24,000 nt of DNA from an uncultured delta proteobacterium. GTDB taxonomy: Bacteria; Desulfobacterota; Desulfobacteria; Desulfobacterales; JAFDCJ01. The stretch is from NCBI GenBank assembly GCA_963769935.1, contig CAVYNY010000010.1:567890-591889 (forward strand), written 5' to 3'. The notes beneath the pieces are model-generated. The model saw only the letters and a list, made by a program, of their open reading frames with translations. It was not told the origin of the DNA and did no database searches. A program made the position numbers and the translations under genes. Positions 1 through 22,815 of this stretch are shown here, piece after piece (within the stretch, counting starts at the first letter, position 1; each line of letters opens with the position of its first letter).

Positions 1-223
1 TCTTCAACAGGTACAAATCAATCCTGTGGACCACAGAGGTGAATACCAGCTCCGGCTCACTCTCTGCCAGCATTCTGATCCGTAAAAGCGATGATTCGCC
101 CTCAAACAGCGGCGGGCCTCCTCCTGACGGATCTGCCACACCCTGACCGGAATCGCCAGCAGCCTTTGCCGCAATTCCCTGGGTTTCCGTGGATATGGTT
201 GGTGACCTCTGAGTATCTCCCAT
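1..223 (-). CDS. Intron-encoded reverse transcriptase/maturase, N-terminal 74 codons (partial, continues beyond position 1)
   Basis: Own translation of the minus frame from ATG 223..221 (RBS-like GGAAGGA 4 nt upstream): MGDTQRSPTISTETQGIAAKAAGDSGQGVADPSGGGPPLFEGESSLLRIRMLAESEPELVFTSVVHRIDLYLLK. The end resembles the ..LVFTSLAHHIDLDLLREA.. motif recalled from bacterial group II intron RTs. It is absent from the ORF track because it is open at the window edge. Confidence 0.5.
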   Translation of the reverse strand, partial: MGDTQRSPTISTETQGIAAKAAGDSGQGVADPSGGGPPLFEGESSLLRIRMLAESEPELVFTSVVHRIDLYLLK

Positions 224-908
224 AGTTCCTTCCAGAGAAACGTTATACCCGGCTTCTCCTTCCCTGCAGTGGGTCGCTTGGGCCTCACTTCCCCACCTTA
301 CCGGTCCAGCATTTACGTTCCTGACCATCGGTACTATGATCCGCTAAGACTTCCAGAAAGTCCATCTCGGGTTTGTTCGCTTTTCGCTATCCTCCCCCGA
401 TACCTTGTATTGCTCCTTTGCTTTCGTCTCGCTGGTCAGGTTAGAGCGCCCCTTCACAGCGCCTGGATTCTCGCCTCGTTGCGCTGGCCGGCACCCTCCA
501 ACCGGTTATTGTACACAAGGAAAACATCTGGATCTCCCGAGTTCCCAAGTTACCCCTATGAGCACATGCCCTGGTCTCAGACCCCGGTGGTGTCCCGAAT
601 GCTTGCCATAGCGCATGTGGGACTGCTGCCTTCCGGCCAGATGAACGCCGTCGGCTTTCTCTCATACAAGCGGAACTTATCCCAAGGTCCACAACTATAC
701 ATTTTTCGGGGCTCAATACACAGCCTGCATCCTTGATCCATCCGGCTTCGGACTCCCGTCTCCGGGTTGGCCCGCGGATTCACTACTGACCTGGTGGCTA
801 ACCTTTAGTCAGGTGGGACTTGAACCTAGGTGATCCTCACCCACTGGGTAACAATATCGAATTTCACCTCCTTGGAAGGTTCCCAACGATTCGGGCTTAG
901 CTGGGCAC
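1..908 (-). mobile_element. Group II intron, 5' part (ribozyme domains before and including the start of the intron ORF); the element runs off the left edge
   Basis: Minus strand 908->224 is about 685 nt with stops in every frame; the track shows only short overlapping ORFs there. An ORF starts at 223 and its product matches the N-terminus of group II intron RT/maturases. The minus-strand sequence at 908 reads GUGCCCAGCUAAGCCC, close to the GUGYG 5' consensus. That is also where similarity of the flanking exported-protein ORF stops. Domains V/VI lie outside the window and cannot be checked. Confidence 0.55.
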
Positions 909-1165
909 GACCACTCCTTTGTCAGGTGAATCGGCAGAACAGGCTGGAAGTTCATCACATCCTGCTCGCGGGTCTTGTCCGTCGCTTCCCCCTGCAAGTA
1001 GTAGCGGTTGAACTGAAAGTTCAGTGCCCAGATGTCCGCTACCGGGTTGTTGAGCTGCTTGGCCACATCGGCCATGGACTTGTGATCCGGCGCGGCGGGT
1101 TCGCCCGTCTGGGCACCTGCGCCGCCGGGCAGGCAAAAAACAATACACAGAAAACTAAAAGCCAT
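909..1165 (-). CDS. Exported, probably outer-membrane, protein: N-terminal part / 5' exon interrupted by the group II intron
   Basis: ORF 809..1165 gives MAFSFLCIVFCLPGGAGA|QTGE..., which is signal-peptide like. It continues AKQLNNPVADIWALNFQFN...NFQPVLPIHLTKEW. This resembles the N-terminus of a proteobacterial outer-membrane 'transporter' family (AK.L.NP...L...PFQNN...QPV.P..L...WNLI.R). Similarity ends after KEW at about 909, and the remaining 33 codons are read-through into intron RNA. An upstream out-of-frame ATG (1176) with a better RBS and a 6-A run (1135-1140) suggest an additional frameshift. Confidence 0.5.
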
Positions 1166-1383: not shown

Positions 1384-2923
1384 TCACGGTTGAAGTTCGA
1401 TTTCTCCCGGCCGCCAGGTCTTGTCGAACCACGGCTCAAGCGGGCCGTACAGGCGCAGGATCATGAACCAGCCTTTGCCGGGAATCGTCTGCACCCAGTT
1501 GTTTTCCTTTCCTGCCGGAGCTTTGGGGCCGAAATAGACATCGACCGAGCCGTCCTTGTTGACGAGCAGATCCTTGTTCTGGCTGCTGACGCTGGGGAAC
1601 TGCTGATCGGTTTGGACCATCGAGCGCGTCTGGTTGTCATAGACGATGACCGACCAGAAGTCTTTGACCGGAATGTTTGGCGGCAGGTGCAGCTTATAGT
1701 TGTTTCCGCCCTCAAACGGGTTGCCGTCCGCGTCCTGTGCGCGACCAGGGATACTGCGAACCTTTGCCGACCATTTTCTCCGCCATGGCCGGCGTCACGC
1801 CGGTGGCGAAATAGTAAAAGAAATGGCCCCGTCCAGATTGGCCACGCCGGTGCAGCTCTCGAACTTGTAGCCGCCGAAGAAGGGCAGACGCCAAGGGCTG
1901 TCTGGATAGAAGAAGGCGTCTTTGTCACGAATCCTGAAGGCGATCGCTCGCGCGGTCACGCTGCCAATCTTCGCGGCGTCCGTCAGGATCTTCTTCATCC
2001 GATCATCGGGATTGAAGGGCTTGCCCTTCTCGATGCCGATCGAGGCAAACAGACCCAGCGTGGTGGGGTCGCTTCCCTCGCTTGGCTCTTCCTGAATGGC
2101 TTCGTTCAGGAGACTCCAGAAGGTGTAGTCGCTGGGCGGGACAAAGGTCGAGGGAATGCCCGGAGGCATTGACGAACTTCATCTCGGGAGGATTGGCCGC
2201 ATCGGAGAGCTGATAGATCTTCAGATGTTTCTTGACCGCCTCGACGCCGGGCTTGGTCGAGCCATCGACGAGAAAGGAGCGAAAGGGCATCCAGTTGCCA
2301 TAGGTGCTCGGCCGCACGACGAAATAGCCCTCGGGCACTTCGCCTTTGTAGCCCGGAGGCAGGATCAGATACTTGCCGCCTTTGCCATGGTCTGCACCTG
2401 TAATACCGATGTCGGCAACCCATTGATACCAGAAGTCATCGATGAGACCCAGAACCATGGGTGGAACCTCTACGACCAGCGGCCCCTTTTTCGTGTCAAG
2501 CCAAATGAAGCTATATATGGTGTTGTCGTTCGCCGTCAGTTCCACGGTTTTCGAATCCACAAGGTCTTCCCAGATCACATCTGTCTGGTTTACCGGTCCG
2601 AACTCGCGGAGCGTGGCGCGCATGCCGACCTGGTTGACTATCGGGATGGCAAGCAGGTAGGCCTGCAGCGCTCGCGAGGCATCCAGGTTGTCGTAGACTT
2701 TCTGCGTGGTCGCGTCATCGGGATAGCCGTAGTTCAGGTTCAGGGTGCCGATGGATGTTTCGACCTTGTCAGGTACCGCTATGCCCTGCGGTAAGGAAGT
2801 TGAATACTTGTACTCCGGTGCCGCCGGCGCACCTGAGAGCTGCGGTACGGTGCCGGCACATGAGGCGACCGTGATCAAGGCAGCCAATGCTGTGCAGATC
2901 GATAGTTGGTTGCGTGTTGTCAT
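1384..2923 (-). pseudogene. DUF1254/DUF1214-family lipoprotein gene disrupted by at least 3 frameshifts
   Basis: Four consecutive minus-strand ORF pieces in different frames join into one protein. Piece 1 (2923->~2165): MTTRNQLSICTALAALITVASC (lipobox) ...PEMKFVNASG. Piece 2 (~2160->~1840): IPSTFVPPSDYTFWSLLNEAIQEEP...GGYKFE. Piece 3 (~1850->~1735): RGHFFYYFATGVTPAMAEKMVGKGSQY. Piece 4 (~1745->1384): DADGNPFEGGNNYKLHLPPNIPVKDFWSVIVYDNQTRSMVQTDQ...GWFMILRLYGPLEPWFDKTWRPGEIE, a DUF1214-type C-terminus. A strong RBS AAGGAGG precedes 2923. Confidence 0.75.
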
Positions 2924-3167
2924 TCGTCTTTCCTCCTTTTACTGTAAGCGGTTCACTGAAATCAACTAATCCATCCGGCTTTTGGTAACAAAATCCTCCG
3001 AAGCCGTCCGCATTGAACCGATCTGCCGAACCCGCCGCTGCTCCGACCTCGGTATTGATTTCCCACACCTAATCCGGACAAGCCGGAATTGAAAATTGAA
3101 GATTTGTGCACAAAATGCACGAATTTAACTTCTAAGATCTATTCGCGGGTTTGGATTCTGGCCTGTT

Positions 3168-3470
3168 CTATGGTTTCCACGCCGGTCGAGTGCGCGATTT
3201 GTCGAAACGGATCTCCGGGGGTTCGGCGGCCATCTCGACCACCAGAAGAACTTTGCGGTATTTCTCGGATCGCAGATGACACTGCACGTCCTCGTCACTC
3301 ATCCAGAGTTCCTCGAGCAGGATAGCGCGCCCATCCTCCACACCCCCATAAAGCCAGCGGCCGATACAACCCGGCTCGAATTGGGTCTGCTCGGTCGTCG
3401 AACCCAGAATTTCCAAGGCCTCGCTCTGCTTTTCAAGTGGTATGAGCATCCTGATGGTGGATCGTACCAT
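3168..3470 (-). CDS. Small ABM/Dabb-fold protein (antibiotic-biosynthesis-monooxygenase-like), 100 aa
   Basis: Intact ORF. The pattern ...FEPGCIGRWLYGGVEDGRAILLEELWMSDEDVQCHLRSEKYRKVL...EPPEIRF matches the ABM signature recalled from YgiN-like proteins (epGC..y.ly.d.ed.n.f.l.E.W.s.e.l..Hl.s..f). It lies downstream of the predicted sigma-54 promoter at 3627-3645. Confidence 0.6.
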   Translation of the reverse strand: MVRSTIRMLIPLEKQSEALEILGSTTEQTQFEPGCIGRWLYGGVEDGRAILLEELWMSDEDVQCHLRSEKYRKVLLVVEMAAEPPEIRFDKSRTRPAWKP

Positions 3471-3626
3471 TCTCGTCCCTTTAAGAGTCTTCAGGTCGAC
3501 GGTTTGTAAACCGTCCGCCGGGGATCCGAACCCGTCCGGAGGTTCACAGAAATTATTGATACTATCTGATGAAACAGCGCAGGCATCTCTGTAGATCTAT
3601 AAAATTTTCCTGCTTCCCAACTATGT

Positions 3627-3645
3627 GAGCGAAATCTATGCCAGA
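3627..3645 (-). promoter_or_regulatory. Predicted sigma-54 (-24/-12) promoter P2
   Basis: Minus strand reads CTGGCATAGATTTCGCTC. GG (3642-3641) and GC (3630-3629) have the canonical spacing of YTGGCACGrNNNTTGCW. The -12 region ATTTCGCT is identical to that of P1 at 19987-20005. The site is about 155 nt upstream of the ABM-like start. Confidence 0.55.
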
Positions 3646-3741
3646 TGGATGAGAACAGGCTGCCTGTCGGATAAGACCCTTTATATATTAGATTTTTGCT
3701 AATTGGCGCCGGGTGAACGCAAGGGGAATAAAATCGGCTTT

Positions 3742-3777
3742 CTGCCGATATTTCGGCACACTGCTCTTATTTCGGCA
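3742..3777. promoter_or_regulatory. Predicted enhancer (UAS): palindrome TGCCGA-N4-TCGGCA plus an extra direct half-site
   Basis: TGCCGATATTTCGGCA at 3742-3757 is identical to 20102-20117. It sits exactly 100 bp upstream of the -24 GG of P2. TATTTCGGCA is repeated at 3748-3757 and 3768-3777, 20 bp apart. Confidence 0.5.
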
Positions 3778-4036
3778 TGCTTTTAAGGCCCTCACAAAAA
3801 TTTTTGAACTCTCAATCGGGAATTTGCCTTCTCCCGCGAAGCGACAGGATGCTATCAAATGCTTCCATCCAAGATCCTTCATAGCAGGGCTCCTTTAAAA
3901 CTAAAATGAGACGTTCAAACTAAGACGGGGCGTTCGTGCGAGCTTTTACAAATCGATAATCGCTGGTACTTCAAAATGCATCATCCGTCAAAAAATCTTA
4001 AATTCCCGGTCGAGGCAGGGCGCATTCGTATGGCCC

Positions 4037-4820
4037 TCAGGGCTGCAGGCCGACATTCGCGAGAGCGGTCCGGGCTGCTTCGGCGCTCAGCCGCTCGACG
4101 TGGGGCCTGACCTGCCGGATCACCTCCGGACTGAGAAACCGAAGATCGCTTTTCCAGGGAAAATCCGGCAAGGATGATTGGCTGCAGGGCGCCTGCGCGT
4201 AGCTTGCCAGGGTCGCCGGCCGAGTCTGGAAAATCGCGACAACGATGTTGGCATAGGGAGTTGCCGTGTTTTGGAAGGGCGAAAAAAATTGGGAGAGTCC
4301 CGAAAGAGCCTTGGTCCGGGTGTAGATTCCATAGCCTTTGGTGGCCACCGGATCATTAGCGATCTTAAAGCAGGCAACCTGCGGCCACCGGCCGGAGTCG
4401 TAGCTGCTTACGGAGATGATCAGATCCAGGCGGTTTTCTTCGGCGGTTTGGTTTATAAAGGCCTTGAGATCATCCCCCATCCACCCCGTAACGGCGTTGA
4501 GGATACTGTTTGACATCGACTGCTTCCAGTCTTGCGGGGCATTGCCCGCGATGGGGATAAACGTATAGCTGCCGCGGGCCCGCAAGTCACTTTCGATTGT
4601 CCGGGTGAGGTAACCCGGAATGTTCCAATCCACATTGTAATCTTTGGTAAAGCTGTCGAAGCGCAGCGATCCAACATCCACGTGGGTCATATCAGTCTCC
4701 AGCAGATTGAGGATGCCGATTCGGGCTTCCGGCGGCAACTGCAGCCGTACCGGTTGCGAACCCGCGCAACCCAGTTACGCTCATCATAATCAGAAACAAA
4801 GCAGGACGAAAGATGTGCAT
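4037..4820 (-). pseudogene. Hypothetical lipoprotein with a 1-nt frameshift inside the signal peptide (or an N-terminally truncated cytoplasmic version starting at TTG 4738)
   Basis: ATG at 4820 has a strong RBS (AAAGGAG, 9-nt spacer) and encodes MHIFRPALFLIMMSVTG... The main 233-aa ORF frame, read upstream of its TTG start, gives *LGCAGSQPVRLQLPPEARIG. Removing one A in GTAACTG (about 4774-4777) yields MHIFRPALFLIMMSVLGCAGSQ..., a textbook lipobox. The body has no family I can recognise. Confidence 0.55.
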
Positions 4821-19986: not shown

Positions 19987-20005
19987 TAGCGAAATATGTG
20001 CCAAT
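19987..20005 (-). promoter_or_regulatory. Predicted sigma-54 (-24/-12) promoter P1 upstream of the asmA-like gene
   Basis: Minus strand reads ATTGGCACATATTTCGCTA: TGGCAC at 20003..19998 and the -12 GC at 19990..19989, with canonical spacing. It is about 170 nt upstream of ATG 19818 and directly downstream of the sigma-54 activator gene. Confidence 0.6.
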
Positions 20006-20101
20006 CTGGCAACAACTGATTGAAGGCGACATAAGGTGCCTTGGTAGCTGGGTTTATTCTCAGATGGAATGGGAAAAGCCGGCTTAAGAAATGCGGTGAT
20101 A

Positions 20102-20117
20102 TGCCGATATTTCGGCA
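20102..20117. promoter_or_regulatory. Predicted enhancer (UAS) palindrome TGCCGA-N4-TCGGCA
   Basis: TGCCGATATTTCGGCA lies 100 bp upstream of the -24 GG of P1 and 20 bp after the bEBP stop codon. An identical 16-mer with identical spacing to a second sigma-54 promoter is at 3742-3757. Confidence 0.55.
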
Positions 20118-20136
20118 GAACGCCCGTATTACAGCA

Positions 20137-22815
20137 TCACTTGGCGGGGCGCCGGATGCCCAGTTTTTTTATCTTCGACTGCAGGGTGGTGCGCTTGAGA
20201 CCCAGAATCTCCGCGGCACCGCCCTGTCCTGTAAGGCGCCAGCCGCTTTTCTCCAGAACGCCCAGGATGTGCCGGCGTTCGGCATCCGCCAGGCTGAGAT
20301 TCGCGGGGATATCGGAAGACGCCGTCCGGGGTGCGCTGACGTCCAGGGATTTGCCGCTGCTCACAATCATGGCGTGCTCGACGACATTTCGCAGCTCCCG
20401 GGCGTTGCCCGGCCAGAGGTAATGCTGCAGGTCTTCCATGCTTTTGCGCGGGATGTGGTCGATGCGCTTGCCCATCTTTTTTTCATACTGCCTGACAAAG
20501 GCCCAGACCAGCAGGGGAATATCCTCCGGCCGTTCCCGCAGCGGCGGCACGGCTATGGGAAACACATTCAACCGGTAATACAGGTCCTTTCTGAATTTTG
20601 CTTCGGCCACATCGCGGGCCAGATCCCGGTTGGTGGCCGCGATGATGCGCACGTTCACCTGCAGCGGCTTGGTGGATCCCAGACGCTCGAACCGGCCTTG
20701 TTCCAGCACCCGCAGCAGCTTGGCCTGCACATCCTGCGGCAGATCCCCGATCTCGTCCAGAAACAGCGTGGCCCCGTCGGCCACCTCGAAACGGCCCGTC
20801 ATCCGGGTCAGCGCACCGGTATAAGCACCTTTTTCACGGCCGAAAAGCTCGCTTTCGATCAGCGTGGGCGGCAGCGAGGCACAGTTGACGGTCACCAGGG
20901 ACCGGTCCTTGCGGGCGCTCAGTCGATGCACGGCCCGGGCCAGAAGCTCCTTGCCGGTGCCCGTTTCCCCCTCGATCAGGACGGTGGTATCCGTCCGGGC
21001 CACCTGCTCGACCTGGGCCAGAATCGCCTTCAGGGCACGGCTGCGGCCGACAATCTCCTCGTGCACATTCTGCAGCTCGATCTCTTCCCGCAGGTAGATG
21101 TTCTCCTTTTCCAGCTGCCGCTTGAGGCCTTCGATCTCCTCGAGTCTCACCTGCAGCTGTTCTTCCATCTGCTTGCGCTCGGAGATATCAATGGATACAC
21201 CCATCAGGCGTTCCGACTCCCCTGACGGACTAAAATAGGGACGGCCGCGACCGGCCATCCACCTGATAGTACCGTCGGGGCGGATGATGCGGTATTCCTC
21301 TCGAAAATCAGCCCGCGTCCGTTTGCACTCTTCTACGCTCCTGCGAATCCGAGCGCGGTCTTCCGGATCGACGATTTGCATGAAACCCTCGAAATTCAGC
21401 TCCTGCCCCGGGGCAAATCCATATAATTCCCTGGTTTTTTCGGTGCCCCAAATACGTCCGTTGGAAGTTTCTAAATTCCACAGGCCGGCTTCCGCAGAAG
21501 TGGCGGCCAGATTTAGGCGCGCCTCGCTTTCGCGCAACGCTTCCTCCGAGCGCTTGCGATCGAGCGCGGCGGCAAATACGGCCACGATGAGACTCATCCG
21601 CTGTACCAAATCCACCGGCCAGATCCGCTCCGCACGCACCGCCACTAGTGCGCAGGATCCCAGCGTCCTGCCTCCACTTAACATGGGAATTGAAAGCAAC
21701 GATTTCATGCCCTTGACCCGACAAAGGCGCCGCTCCCCTTCGGCTTCAGCCGGCAGGTCTTCCAGCCGATCGACCACCACCAAATTACCTTGCCGTAATT
21801 GCGCGATGTACCATGGCAATTGATGCTGCGAAAGGAAAACAGGCGCGGGCTCGATCCCTTCCAGATGATATTCAAATGCGCTTTGCAACCGAGCCCCGTC
21901 TTCGGTAAATATTCCTATGGAACACCGGTCCGCATCGAAAAATTCGGTGATGCGCTGGAGCCACTTATTGATTTCGCCTTCGACTTTATCGGTCGAAATG
22001 TTCACAAATCCGGCCGAAAGATCGGATATTAACTCCTCAAACCGCAGTCGATCCGCCGACTGCTGCCGTGTCTGGGCAAGCTGCAGGGTGTTTACAAGGA
22101 TCTCTCCCAGCAGGCGCAGCCGCGGAATATAATCTTCAGGCCAGGCACATTCTTTACGGACCGCATTTATGGAAATGATGTAATCCAATGAGGCACCGAC
22201 GGTGATCGGGATGTTCAGAGCGGATCGAATTTCCAATCTCTCGTATGTTTGCCGGTCGACCGCGGCCTCGCCCGGCAGCTCATCGCGTGTGGTGAAGGAG
22301 ACGACTTCATGCCGCTGAATAATTTTCTCGTAGACCCAGGGAAACAACATGAGGGAAAGGTCGGCATTTTCCGGTACGGGGGAAACCTCAGAGGCATACG
22401 CGACATGGGTGATCCGAAATGAAGTATCGATCGGTGAAATCCGGACCAGGCCGCAGCGGTCCACCTGGAAAAAATCGAGTATCTGCGTCAGGGCACTTCG
22501 AATTTGGTGATCGACCTGGTCAGGAGCCAAGTTGATAAATCGGGCCGAAAGGTCTGACAACAGCCGCTCAAATTGCAGGCGTTCTTTGAGGCCCACCTCG
22601 GCCAGTTTGCGCTGTTCGATTTCCCGATTCAGGCGTTCGCGGACGGCAGCCAATTGCTCTTTTGCTCCGGCCGAATCCACCGCCAGTGCTTTTACGGGCC
22701 GGGCCGGGCCCGCGTGCGACCGCAGCAGAGCTTCCCCGGCCCGCCGGCTGTCTGCATTTTTCTGCGCATATTGCCGGCGATTGGTTTTTGCATTTTCCAG
22801 TCGGTCGTTGACCAT
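20137..22815 (-). CDS. Sigma-54-dependent transcriptional activator (bEBP), 892 aa: GAF-like x2, PAS, AAA+ sigma-54 interaction domain, Fis-type HTH; no receiver domain
   Basis: RBS AAGGAGG. Walker A: [14 protein letters not shown] variant: EKGAYTGA. Also present: [56 protein letters not shown]-terminal HTH: [21 protein letters not shown]. The motif L.FE.L(L/I)SDLSA.F(I/V)N occurs twice and precedes the two GAF-like modules. Confidence 0.92.

What the first reader, a model, noticed from the sequence alone, without database searches (positions are those of the whole stretch)
3627..3777. Second member of the predicted regulon: the same UAS with an extra half-site drives a small ABM-fold protein inside a gene-decay zone
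P2 (3645..3627, minus) and the palindrome 3742-3757 copy the P1 architecture.

Here the half-site TATTTCGGCA is also repeated directly at 3748-3757 and 3768-3777. The 20-bp offset is two helical turns, a layout typical of cooperative bEBP oligomer assembly sites.

The only intact gene downstream is the 100-aa ABM-like ORF (3470..3168). Every other gene in the left 4.9 kb carries a lesion. Retention of an elaborate promoter for a tiny Dabb-fold protein suggests it belongs functionally to the bEBP / AsmA / stressosome cluster, for example as a small-molecule modifying enzyme or a ligand-related protein for the GAF/PAS sensor.
Basis: partly seen in the sequence, partly recalled or inferred. Interest (0 to 1): 0.6.

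Follow-up and report, generated by a model that had tools for sequence, protein, structure and literature searches.

The report
Sigma-54 enhancer-promoter heading a decaying ABM operon
This is a real, evolutionarily conserved sigma-54 promoter with a tandem activator-binding enhancer in front of a small ABM-fold gene; across the sulfate-reducer order Desulfobacterales that gene is the constant first target of this activator family, but in this genome the gene and its operon are broken.

Summary
The palindrome TGCCGAAATATCGGCA is at 3743-3758. The promoter TGGCATAGATTTCGCT is at 3643..3628 on the minus strand. The repeated half-site is at 3749-3758 and 3768-3777, 19 bp apart rather than 20.

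The "extra half-site" is the conserved half of a second, distal 16-bp palindrome. P1 has a degenerate copy, as does a third module 30 kb outside the window.

Four congeneric species keep both sites, the promoter and their spacing, while the DNA between has diverged. Order-wide, orthologues of the window's activator lie directly upstream of an ABM gene in 17 of 30 loci from 8 families. These loci carry tandem palindromes about 114 bp from a GG..TTTCGC promoter. The recognition helix changes together with the half-site.

The ABM gene therefore belongs to this activator's regulon and is probably its ancestral target. It is not intact here: one base is missing after codon 90, which removes a conserved C-terminal helix. 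The operon behind it is frameshifted and interrupted by an intron.

The design is conventional. The activator-ABM module appears undescribed. An earlier scan report on P1 reached a similar verdict.

The parts
3762..3777 (-). Distal activator site TGCCGAAATAAGAGCA. The left half is conserved and the right half is degenerate.
   Evidence: ATGCCGAAATAA is invariant in 4 species. In other families the same position holds a full palindrome TGCCGAAATAnCGGCA.
3743..3758 (-). Proximal activator site, the perfect 16-bp palindrome TGCCGAAATATCGGCA. It lies 19 bp centre to centre from the distal site.
3728..3739 (-). Possible weak third half-site AGCCGATTTTAT, a further 19 bp downstream. Together with the proximal right arm it also forms a terminator-like hairpin followed by a T-run.
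   Evidence: Sequence and hairpin. It is only loosely conserved within the genus and is an inference.
3664..3690 (-). Conserved AT-rich tract plus a CTTATCC..CAG block between enhancer and promoter. It is a candidate site for a DNA-bending protein.
   Evidence: CTTAT and CAG are invariant in the 4-species alignment. The match to the IHF consensus is poor, and binding was not tested.
3628..3643 (-). Sigma-54 -24/-12 promoter TGGCATAGATTTCGCT, with GG at 3642-3641 and GC at 3630-3629. The predicted start of transcription is near 3617.
   Evidence: The same GG-N7-TTCGC motif occurs upstream of ABM in 16 of 30 order-level loci.
3471..3617 (-). Predicted 5' leader of about 147 nt. GGAAAA near +15 and GACCTGAAG before the ribosome-binding site are conserved. 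The 8-bp palindrome at 3498-3515 is not conserved.
3168..3470 (-). ABM-fold gene as it reads now: 100 aa, frame broken near 3199-3203.
   Evidence: Pfam PF03992 at 31.5 bits. It is 77% identical to orthologues over residues 1-91 only. 120 metagenomic homologues of at least 73% identity are listed, mostly 109 aa long.
3139..3198 (-). Out-of-frame remainder of the ABM gene, encoding the conserved tail IAHSTGVETIEQARIQTRE.
   Evidence: In the orthologue model this tail is helix 96-107.
1384..3068 (-). Broken DUF1254/DUF1214-type gene inserted between ABM and the next operon gene.
   Evidence: Pfam DUF1254. Intact homologues have open frames of 480-590 aa, whereas the window copy needs at least one frame change near 2133-2003 and shows further breaks.
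893..1153 (-). 5' exon of the 301-aa operon gene, which directly follows ABM in G013.
   Evidence: tblastn places residues 15-106 here and residues 101-301 at C10:566554-565952, left of the window.
1..892 (-). 5' part of a group II intron that splits the 301-aa gene. Its reverse transcriptase is frameshifted.
   Evidence: Rfam RF02005 at 572-822, and RF00029 at L018:14554-14628. RVT_1 is split over two ORFs.
4037..4820 (-). Upstream lipoprotein gene whose signal peptide and lipobox lie in different frames.
20137..22815 (-). Cognate activator with GAF, PAS, AAA+ (GAYTGA) and HTH_8 domains. Its recognition helix reads KRTTLQSK.
19988..20136 (-). P1 module in front of the asmA-like gene: distal site 20121-20136, palindrome 20102-20117, promoter 20003-19988.

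Best explanation
P2 is a sigma-54-dependent promoter served by a tandem enhancer. It heads an operon whose first gene is a small ABM-fold protein, followed by envelope and periplasmic genes.

Inferred mechanism: dimers of the GAF-PAS-AAA+-HTH activator encoded at 20137-22815 bind two 16-bp palindromes of the form TGCCGAnATnTCGGCA, 19 bp centre to centre. A weak third site may contribute. The bound dimers assemble into the active ring. The DNA loops over about 100 bp, possibly bent at the conserved AT-rich/CTTATCC block. ATP hydrolysis then opens the closed sigma-54 holoenzyme complex sitting on TGGCAT-N5-TTCGCT.

Shown: the sequence elements, their fixed geometry, their conservation, their order-wide linkage to this activator clade, and the co-variation of recognition helix and half-site.

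Inferred: binding, looping, sigma-54 dependence in vivo and the inducing signal.

Across Desulfobacterales the usual layout is activator gene, tandem sites, promoter, ABM gene, then variable cargo. In this genus the ABM operon with its enhancer sits apart from the activator (16 kb away in this genome), and copies of the cassette drive other envelope genes. In this genome the cassette is intact, but the ABM gene and most of its operon carry frameshifts, an insertion and an intron. P2 here most likely drives a recently inactivated operon.
For: - Uniqueness: the exact palindrome occurs twice in 8 Mb. The composite tandem pattern is found only at P1, P2 and P3. Only these three sites show a palindrome plus a promoter at 108-120 bp above noise.
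- Fixed spacing: 110-112 nt in 7 modules from 4 species.
- Phylogenetic footprint: both sites, the central block and the promoter are conserved in 4 species while flanking DNA diverges.
- Machinery: rpoN is present, and the activator has GAYTGA and HTH_8.
- No sigma-70-like promoter was found on the gene's strand.
- Order-wide promoter: GG-N7-TT[CA]GC lies 75-215 bp upstream of ABM in 16 of 30 loci, against about 0.013 expected per locus.
- Order-wide enhancer: tandem palindromes lie directly after an activator gene. Orthologous activators are adjacent in 17 of 30 loci from 8 families.
- Phylogeny: the window's activator nests, with 100/99 support, in a clade made only of ABM-adjacent activators.
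- Helix and half-site change together: LQSK with GCCGA, LYSK with GTCGA, LQAK with GCCCA, LGAK with GGCAA.
- Within the genus, ABM orthologues were found only in genomes that also hold the activator orthologue.
Against: There is no transcript, start-site or binding data.

The -12 element is TTCGCT rather than the TTGCW that predominates in this genome.

In this genome the downstream genes are broken, so the promoter may now be functionless.

Three congeners with the activator orthologue (G007, G008, G012) showed no ABM orthologue, so ABM is not an obligatory target.

The helix/half-site co-variation rests on a few lineages that may be related to one another.
Confidence: 0.8

Rival explanations
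1. The promoter and enhancer are real, and the operon is also intact in the living organism. On this view the frameshifts are consensus errors of a long-read metagenome assembly, so P2 drives a working ABM-led envelope operon.
For: - Each broken gene still reads as good protein on both sides of the break. The sulfatase pieces are 86-93% identical to G013, and the ABM tail is perfectly preserved out of frame.
- All characterised lesions are single-base indels. The two in one sulfatase gene are the same event, GATG to GATAG.
- Relatives are metagenome-assembled genomes.
Against: - About 17 kb of adjacent coding sequence has no break.
- Only 3 of 61 activator loci genome-wide are frameshifted, and 2 of those 3 sit next to ABM paralogues on other contigs. 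Random assembly error would not produce that pattern.
- The 2-kb insertion between ABM and the next gene and the group II intron are structural changes, not base-calling errors.
Confidence: 0.3
2. The palindromes are bound by a regulator other than the neighbouring activator, for example another of the roughly 60 bEBPs or a repressor. The similarity to P1 would then reflect a duplicated cassette rather than shared control.
For: The genome encodes 61 bEBP loci. P2 lies 16 kb from the activator gene. No binding data exist.
Against: - Across 8 families the tandem sites begin immediately after the stop codon of this activator clade.
- The half-site sequence changes together with the recognition helix.
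- The only other close paralogue in this genome (C35) carries LYSK, has GTCGA-type sites and is frameshifted.
Confidence: 0.07
3. P2 is a dead relic. The cassette survives only because too little time has passed for a roughly 50-bp target to mutate, and it no longer has any regulatory role.
For: Every gene it could drive is damaged. Paralogous ABM modules in this genome are also damaged.
Against: The 16-mer is identical to P1's, and all footprint blocks match the orthologues. This argues against decay of the cassette itself, but cannot exclude very recent loss of function of the operon.
Confidence: 0.25

Closest known systems
OrpR and the orp operons of Desulfovibrio vulgaris Hildenborough (PMC8359166, PMC3897727)
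   Same: A one-component sigma-54 activator in a sulfate reducer. Its palindromic sites lie next to its own gene. It controls a very small regulon, and IHF assists looping.
   Different: The OrpR site is GGGCGYRTTTTGCGCCC, which is unrelated to TGCCGAnATnTCGGCA. OrpR has a PAS domain with an Fe-S cluster, whereas this activator has GAF plus PAS. The targets are orp genes, not an ABM-led envelope operon.
FhlA (formate hydrogenlyase activator) and its upstream activating sequences
   Same: This is the best NCBIfam match of the AAA+/HTH part of the window's activator. FhlA also has a GAF-type sensor and an enhancer about 100 bp upstream of sigma-54 promoters.
   Different: The score is 387.5 bits against a cut-off of 830, and only the C-terminal half aligns. 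There are no hydrogenase or formate genes in the regulon. It is not a member.
NtrC at glnAp2 (own knowledge)
   Same: Tandem dimer sites about 100-140 bp upstream nucleate an activator oligomer that contacts the sigma-54 holoenzyme by looping.
   Different: NtrC is a phosphorylated response regulator. Its site sequence and spacing differ.
LsrG in the lsr operon, and PspA with PspF (own knowledge)
   Same: LsrG is an ABM-fold protein encoded in the operon whose inducer it processes, and it is among the structural matches. PspA is the first gene of an operon and feeds back on that operon's own bEBP. Both are precedents for a small first-gene product acting on its regulator's signal.
   Different: No evidence here for substrate, inducer or protein-protein contact. 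Sequence identity to LsrG is 14-16%.

Membership tests
Sigma-54 (-24/-12) promoter class | GG and GC doublets exactly 10 bp apart within TGGCAC-N5-TTGCW | tested here: met
   TGGCATAGATTTCGCT at 3643..3628. It has one departure, TTCGC instead of TTGC, which is shared by P1, P3 and the order-wide ABM promoters.
Sigma-54 (-24/-12) promoter class | The organism encodes sigma-54 | tested here: met
   PF04552 match at 207.5 bits in a 488-aa open frame at C22:558363-558839.
Sigma-54 (-24/-12) promoter class | Transcription starts about 12 nt after the GC and depends on rpoN | not testable with these tools
bEBP upstream activating sequence (enhancer) | Inverted-repeat sites 80-150 bp upstream of the promoter, usually in tandem | tested here: met
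   Two 16-bp sites lie 19 bp apart. The proximal site starts 115 bp before TGGCA. Spacing is fixed at 110-116 bp across species and families.
bEBP upstream activating sequence (enhancer) | Conservation in orthologous promoters while flanking DNA diverges | tested here: met
   Four-species alignment and order-level loci.
bEBP upstream activating sequence (enhancer) | A cognate activator with AAA+ (GAFTGA-type loop) and HTH domains, linked to the sites | tested here: met
   Sigma54_activat, HTH_8 and GAYTGA. Adjacency in 17 of 30 loci, the activator clade and helix/half-site co-variation.
bEBP upstream activating sequence (enhancer) | Physical binding of the activator to the sites | not testable with these tools
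   Needs EMSA, footprinting or ChIP.
ABM family (PF03992, dimeric alpha+beta barrel) | Profile match above the curated cut-off | tested here: met
   31.5 bits against a cut-off of 23.1 for the window copy, and 51.9 bits for the G010 orthologue.
ABM family (PF03992, dimeric alpha+beta barrel) | Ferredoxin-like beta-alpha-beta-beta-alpha-beta fold | tested here: met
   The model of the intact orthologue has pLDDT 91. Top PDB matches are ABM proteins 4dpo, 4hl9, 1y0h and LsrG, with TM-scores 0.75-0.80.
ABM family (PF03992, dimeric alpha+beta barrel) | Full-length open reading frame as in the subfamily (mostly 109 aa, with the tail S.G.E.IE.AR) | tested here: not met
   The window copy changes frame after residue 90, and the conserved tail lies in another frame.
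ABM family (PF03992, dimeric alpha+beta barrel) | Monooxygenase, isomerase or other catalytic activity | not testable with these tools
   No substrate is known. The organism is an anaerobe's relative, so an oxygen-dependent role is uncertain.
FhlA equivalog (NF011958) | Whole-protein score above the curated cut-off | tested here: not met
   387.5 bits against 830, and only residues 545-889 align.
OrpR regulon | The 17-bp site GGGCGYRTTTTGCGCCC | tested here: not met
   The site here is TGCCGAAATATCGGCA (compared with PMC8359166).

The most novel reading that the evidence does not exclude
The ABM protein may be a built-in partner of this activator family rather than cargo. It is the one gene always placed first behind the enhancer-promoter, while the genes after it vary (sulfatase-type, LolA-like DUF2092, DUF4410, DUF3313, outer-membrane barrel, flavoprotein reductase, solute-binding protein).

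It could make, destroy or sequester the small molecule sensed by the GAF/PAS domains, as the ABM-fold enzyme LsrG does for the lsr inducer. Alternatively it could act directly on the activator, as PspA does on PspF. Either role would give the circuit feedback.

The repeated breakage of ABM modules in this one genome would then be the coordinated loss of a whole signalling circuit.
Probability: 0.2. Interest if true: 0.6.

Novelty: new member of a known kind. Interest (0 to 1): 0.4.

Why it matters
Desulfobacterales genomes carry dozens of sigma-54 activators whose targets are almost all unknown. This work assigns one clade of them three things: a binding site (tandem TGCCGAnATnTCGGCA), a promoter variant (GG-N7-TTCGC), and a conserved first target, a small ABM-fold protein heading envelope and periplasmic gene sets. 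In congeners the same cassette drives AsmA-like, Pqi and cardiolipin-synthase genes.

That gives a testable handle on envelope and lipid-homeostasis control in sulfate reducers. It also offers a natural series of recognition-helix and half-site changes for studying activator specificity. For this genome in particular, it shows an intact control element outliving the genes it controls, or else flags a local assembly problem.

Tried and rejected
- **Reads and RNA:** Neither transcription from P2 nor the reality of the frameshifts could be checked.
- **Loose pattern search:** searching the 16-mer with 2 mismatches over 41 genomes gave no more hits than the reversed control. I replaced it with the composite tandem pattern.
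- **Zone-wide decay measure:** the share of DNA in stop-free frames of at least 200 aa did not single out the damaged zone (22nd percentile). I used breaks in the 61 activator loci as the yardstick instead.
- **5'-UTR hairpin:** the 8-bp palindrome at 3498-3515 is not conserved in the orthologues, so I did not count it as part of the element.
- **IHF:** the conserved central block matches the IHF consensus poorly by eye. I kept it only as a candidate bending site.
- **CxxC motif:** the window copy has lost the second cysteine of GC.SC, but so have several intact homologues. This is not evidence of decay.
- **Programmed +1 frameshifting at the two GATAG sites:** I considered this and set it aside, because tRNA re-pairing is implausible and there is no supporting evidence.
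- **NCBIfam:** it gave no name for the ABM subfamily, the 301-aa protein or the 829-aa P3 target.
- **Literature:** searches found no description of an ABM/bEBP module.

Full report
**What is in the sequence**

On the minus strand, reading 5' to 3', the intergenic region 3471-3800 contains the following elements.
- A distal site, TGCCGAAATAAGAGCA, at 3777..3762.
- A 3-bp spacer.
- A perfect palindrome, TGCCGAAATATCGGCA, at 3758..3743.
- About 100 bp of spacer.
- The promoter TGGCATAGATTTCGCT at 3643..3628.
- About 147 nt of leader.
- The ATG of a 100-aa ABM-family ORF at 3470.

The direct repeat of TATTTCGGCA is 19 bp apart, not 20. The same palindrome and a near-identical promoter stand in front of the asmA-like gene (P1) at the same distance.

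**Is it more than chance?**

- The exact 16-mer occurs only twice in the 7.99-Mb genome, both times in this window.
- A third module (P3) lies at C10:622302, 30 kb to the right of the window. It has a one-base variant of the palindrome, a distal half-site at the same 19-bp offset and the promoter TGGCACAGGTTTCGCT at the same distance.
- A composite pattern (distal half-site, N12, proximal core) hits P1, P2 and P3 with no mismatch. In 41 related genomes the reversed-pattern control gives a single hit.
- A genome-wide scan looked for a palindrome with up to 3 mismatches plus a good -24/-12 element 108-120 bp away. It finds only these three sites above the noise level.
- The genome encodes sigma-54.
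- No sigma-70-like promoter was found on the gene's strand.

**Conservation within the genus**

ABM orthologues of 74-77% protein identity exist in three other species: G010, G013 and a Desulfobacterales MAG found. In all three the following are conserved at the same spacing, while the DNA between them has diverged.
- The distal half-site ATGCCGAAATAA.
- The proximal palindrome.
- A central CTTAT..CAG block.
- The promoter CTGGYA..ATTTCGC.

Seven modules from four species keep 110-112 nt between the enhancer core and TGG. In G008 the same cassette drives two other gene sets: DUF2845 genes plus a cardiolipin-synthase-type gene, and a PqiA/PqiA/PqiB set. The regulon is therefore built from envelope and lipid-transport genes, and its content differs between species.

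**The "extra half-site"**

In other families of the order the same position holds two full 16-bp palindromes separated by 3 bp. An example is TGCCGAAATAGCGGCC-TGA-TGCCGATATTTCGGCA. P1 carries a degenerate copy (TGCTGTAATA) and P3 carries TGCCGAGATA. It is therefore a feature of the whole family, not a special addition at P2.

A possible third, weak half-site (AGCCGATTTTAT, 3739..3728) lies a further 19 bp downstream. It is only loosely conserved, and I treat it as an inference.

**Link to the activator**

- *Promoter upstream of ABM.* I searched 301 genomes of the order with the intact ABM orthologue. In 16 of the 30 best loci a GG-N7-TT[CA]GC element lies 75-215 bp upstream of the ABM start. 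About 0.013 are expected per locus.
- *Adjacency.* In 17 of the 30 loci, from 8 GTDB families, the gene directly upstream is an orthologue of the window's activator. These orthologues are 57-73% identical over the C-terminal 330-400 residues. The closest paralogues inside this genome are 49-57% identical over comparable spans.
- *Phylogeny.* A maximum-likelihood tree places the window's activator, with 100/99 support, inside a clade made only of ABM-adjacent activators. The sister clade is also ABM-linked.
- *Specificity.* The HTH recognition helix changes together with the half-site. KRTTLQSK goes with GCCGA, LYSK with GTCGA (L083 and this genome's C35 paralogue), LQAK with GCCCA (L077 and a Desulfococcus MAG), and LGAK with GGCAA.
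- *Co-occurrence in the genus.* ABM orthologues were found only in genomes that also have the activator orthologue. Three genomes with the activator orthologue lack an ABM orthologue.

All of this is correlative, but it is consistent. It makes the window's activator by far the best candidate binder.

**What the operon is**

In G013 the order is ABM, a 301-aa protein, an 849-aa sulfatase-family protein, Ysc84, DUF2092, DUF6515 and MscS. In G010 the order is ABM, DUF2092, a 104-aa protein, DUF1269, the sulfatase, DUF4410, DUF2092 and DUF6515.

Order-wide, the gene after ABM varies. It can be a sulfatase, DUF2092, DUF4410, DUF3313, an outer-membrane barrel, a CusF-like protein, a flavoprotein disulfide reductase or a solute-binding protein. 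ABM is the constant member.

The intact orthologue models with high confidence (pLDDT 91) as a beta-alpha-beta-beta-alpha-beta fold plus a C-terminal helix. It matches solved ABM proteins, mostly of unknown function, and also LsrG. No curated family names it.

**State of the locus in this genome**

- *ABM gene.* The ABM ORF is not intact. Relative to its orthologues and a paralogue, one base is missing near 3199-3203. The conserved tail IAHSTGVETIEQAR is readable only in another frame, at 3198..3139. The 120 close metagenomic homologues listed (at least 73% identity) are mostly 109 aa long.
- *Downstream of ABM.* A broken DUF1254-type gene occupies a roughly 2-kb insertion that is absent in G013.
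- *The 301-aa gene.* It is split by a group II intron whose reverse transcriptase is itself frameshifted.
- *Beyond the window's left end.* Two sulfatase copies each carry two frame breaks.
- *Upstream of P2.* The lipoprotein gene has its signal peptide and lipobox in different frames.

By contrast, about 17 kb of coding sequence to the right has no break. Only 3 of 61 activator loci in the genome are frameshifted, and 2 of those 3 sit next to ABM paralogues on other contigs. This favours real, function-linked decay over random assembly error.

Some features keep an assembly artefact possible, at roughly 30%. Every lesion I could characterise is a single-base indel in otherwise well-preserved coding sequence. 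Two of them are the identical change, GATG to GATAG.

**Comparison with what is known**

The design is the standard sigma-54 enhancer-promoter unit. The nearest studied case in sulfate reducers is OrpR with the orp operons. It has the same logic, but an unrelated site and different targets.

The activator's best curated match is FhlA, far below the family cut-off, so it is not a member. Searches of the literature, including the Desulfovibrio sigma-54 regulome paper, found no ABM-led regulon and no such site.

An earlier report of this scan on P1 (e1-2456217) reached the same general verdict for the P1/P2 pair. This report adds the following.
- The order-wide activator-ABM linkage.
- The tandem-palindrome reading of the half-site.
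- The recognition-helix/half-site co-variation.
- The third module, P3, with its activator relic (about 90% identical to residues 748-786 of the window's activator).
- The frameshift in the ABM gene itself.

**Verdict**

P2 is a real and conserved element and a new member of a known kind of system. It is of moderate interest. The more novel possibility is that ABM is a feedback partner of its activator. That remains open and is testable.

Noticed in passing
G000:C10:622100-622520 (locus L016:10100-10520), outside the window: A third enhancer-promoter module (P3). Directly upstream is a roughly 40-codon relic of an activator gene, about 90% identical to residues 748-786 of the window's bEBP. 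Downstream are a 36-aa single-helix membrane ORF and an 829-aa protein with no Pfam or NCBIfam match.
   Followed up: partly
G000:C35:121774-128900 (locus L017): A paralogous module in the usual layout: PAS-GAF activator (frameshifted before its HTH), TGTCG-type sites, promoter TGGCATGCATTTCGCT, a 115-aa ABM paralogue, a truncated sulfatase, Lnb_N, MipA and a PLD-type gene. Similar ABM modules with other palindromes lie at C38:21471-23450, C32:7390-8542/6879-7139 and C32:23495-23731.
   Followed up: partly
G000:C10:560373 and 559382 (left of the window): Both frame breaks in the 849-aa sulfatase-family gene are insertions of one A in the same context: GATG in G013 becomes GATAG here. The lipoprotein gene break near window position 4776 also looks like an extra A. 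This could be a systematic sequencing error or a mutational bias.
   Followed up: partly
window 1-892 and C10:566555-567889: A group II intron (Rfam RF02005 and RF00029) sits in the same orientation as the 301-aa gene it interrupts. Its reverse transcriptase is split over two frames.
   Followed up: partly
window 3733-3749 (minus strand): The right arm of the proximal palindrome pairs with GCCGAT just downstream and is followed by TTTTATT. This gives a terminator-like hairpin that could also end transcription of the upstream lipoprotein gene.
   Followed up: no
window 3595-3605 and 3485-3500 (minus strand): Two short leader blocks are invariant in four species: GGAAAA about 15 nt after the predicted start, and GACCTGAAG just before the ribosome-binding site. 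Their role is unknown.
   Followed up: no
locus L057 (G008:C41:106000-122524): In a congener the same activator and cassette drive two DUF2845 lipoprotein genes plus a cardiolipin-synthase-type gene. A second cassette 5.4 kb away drives a 312-aa protein with PqiA, PqiA and PqiB. A sigma-70-family sigma factor gene lies between the two cassettes.
   Followed up: partly
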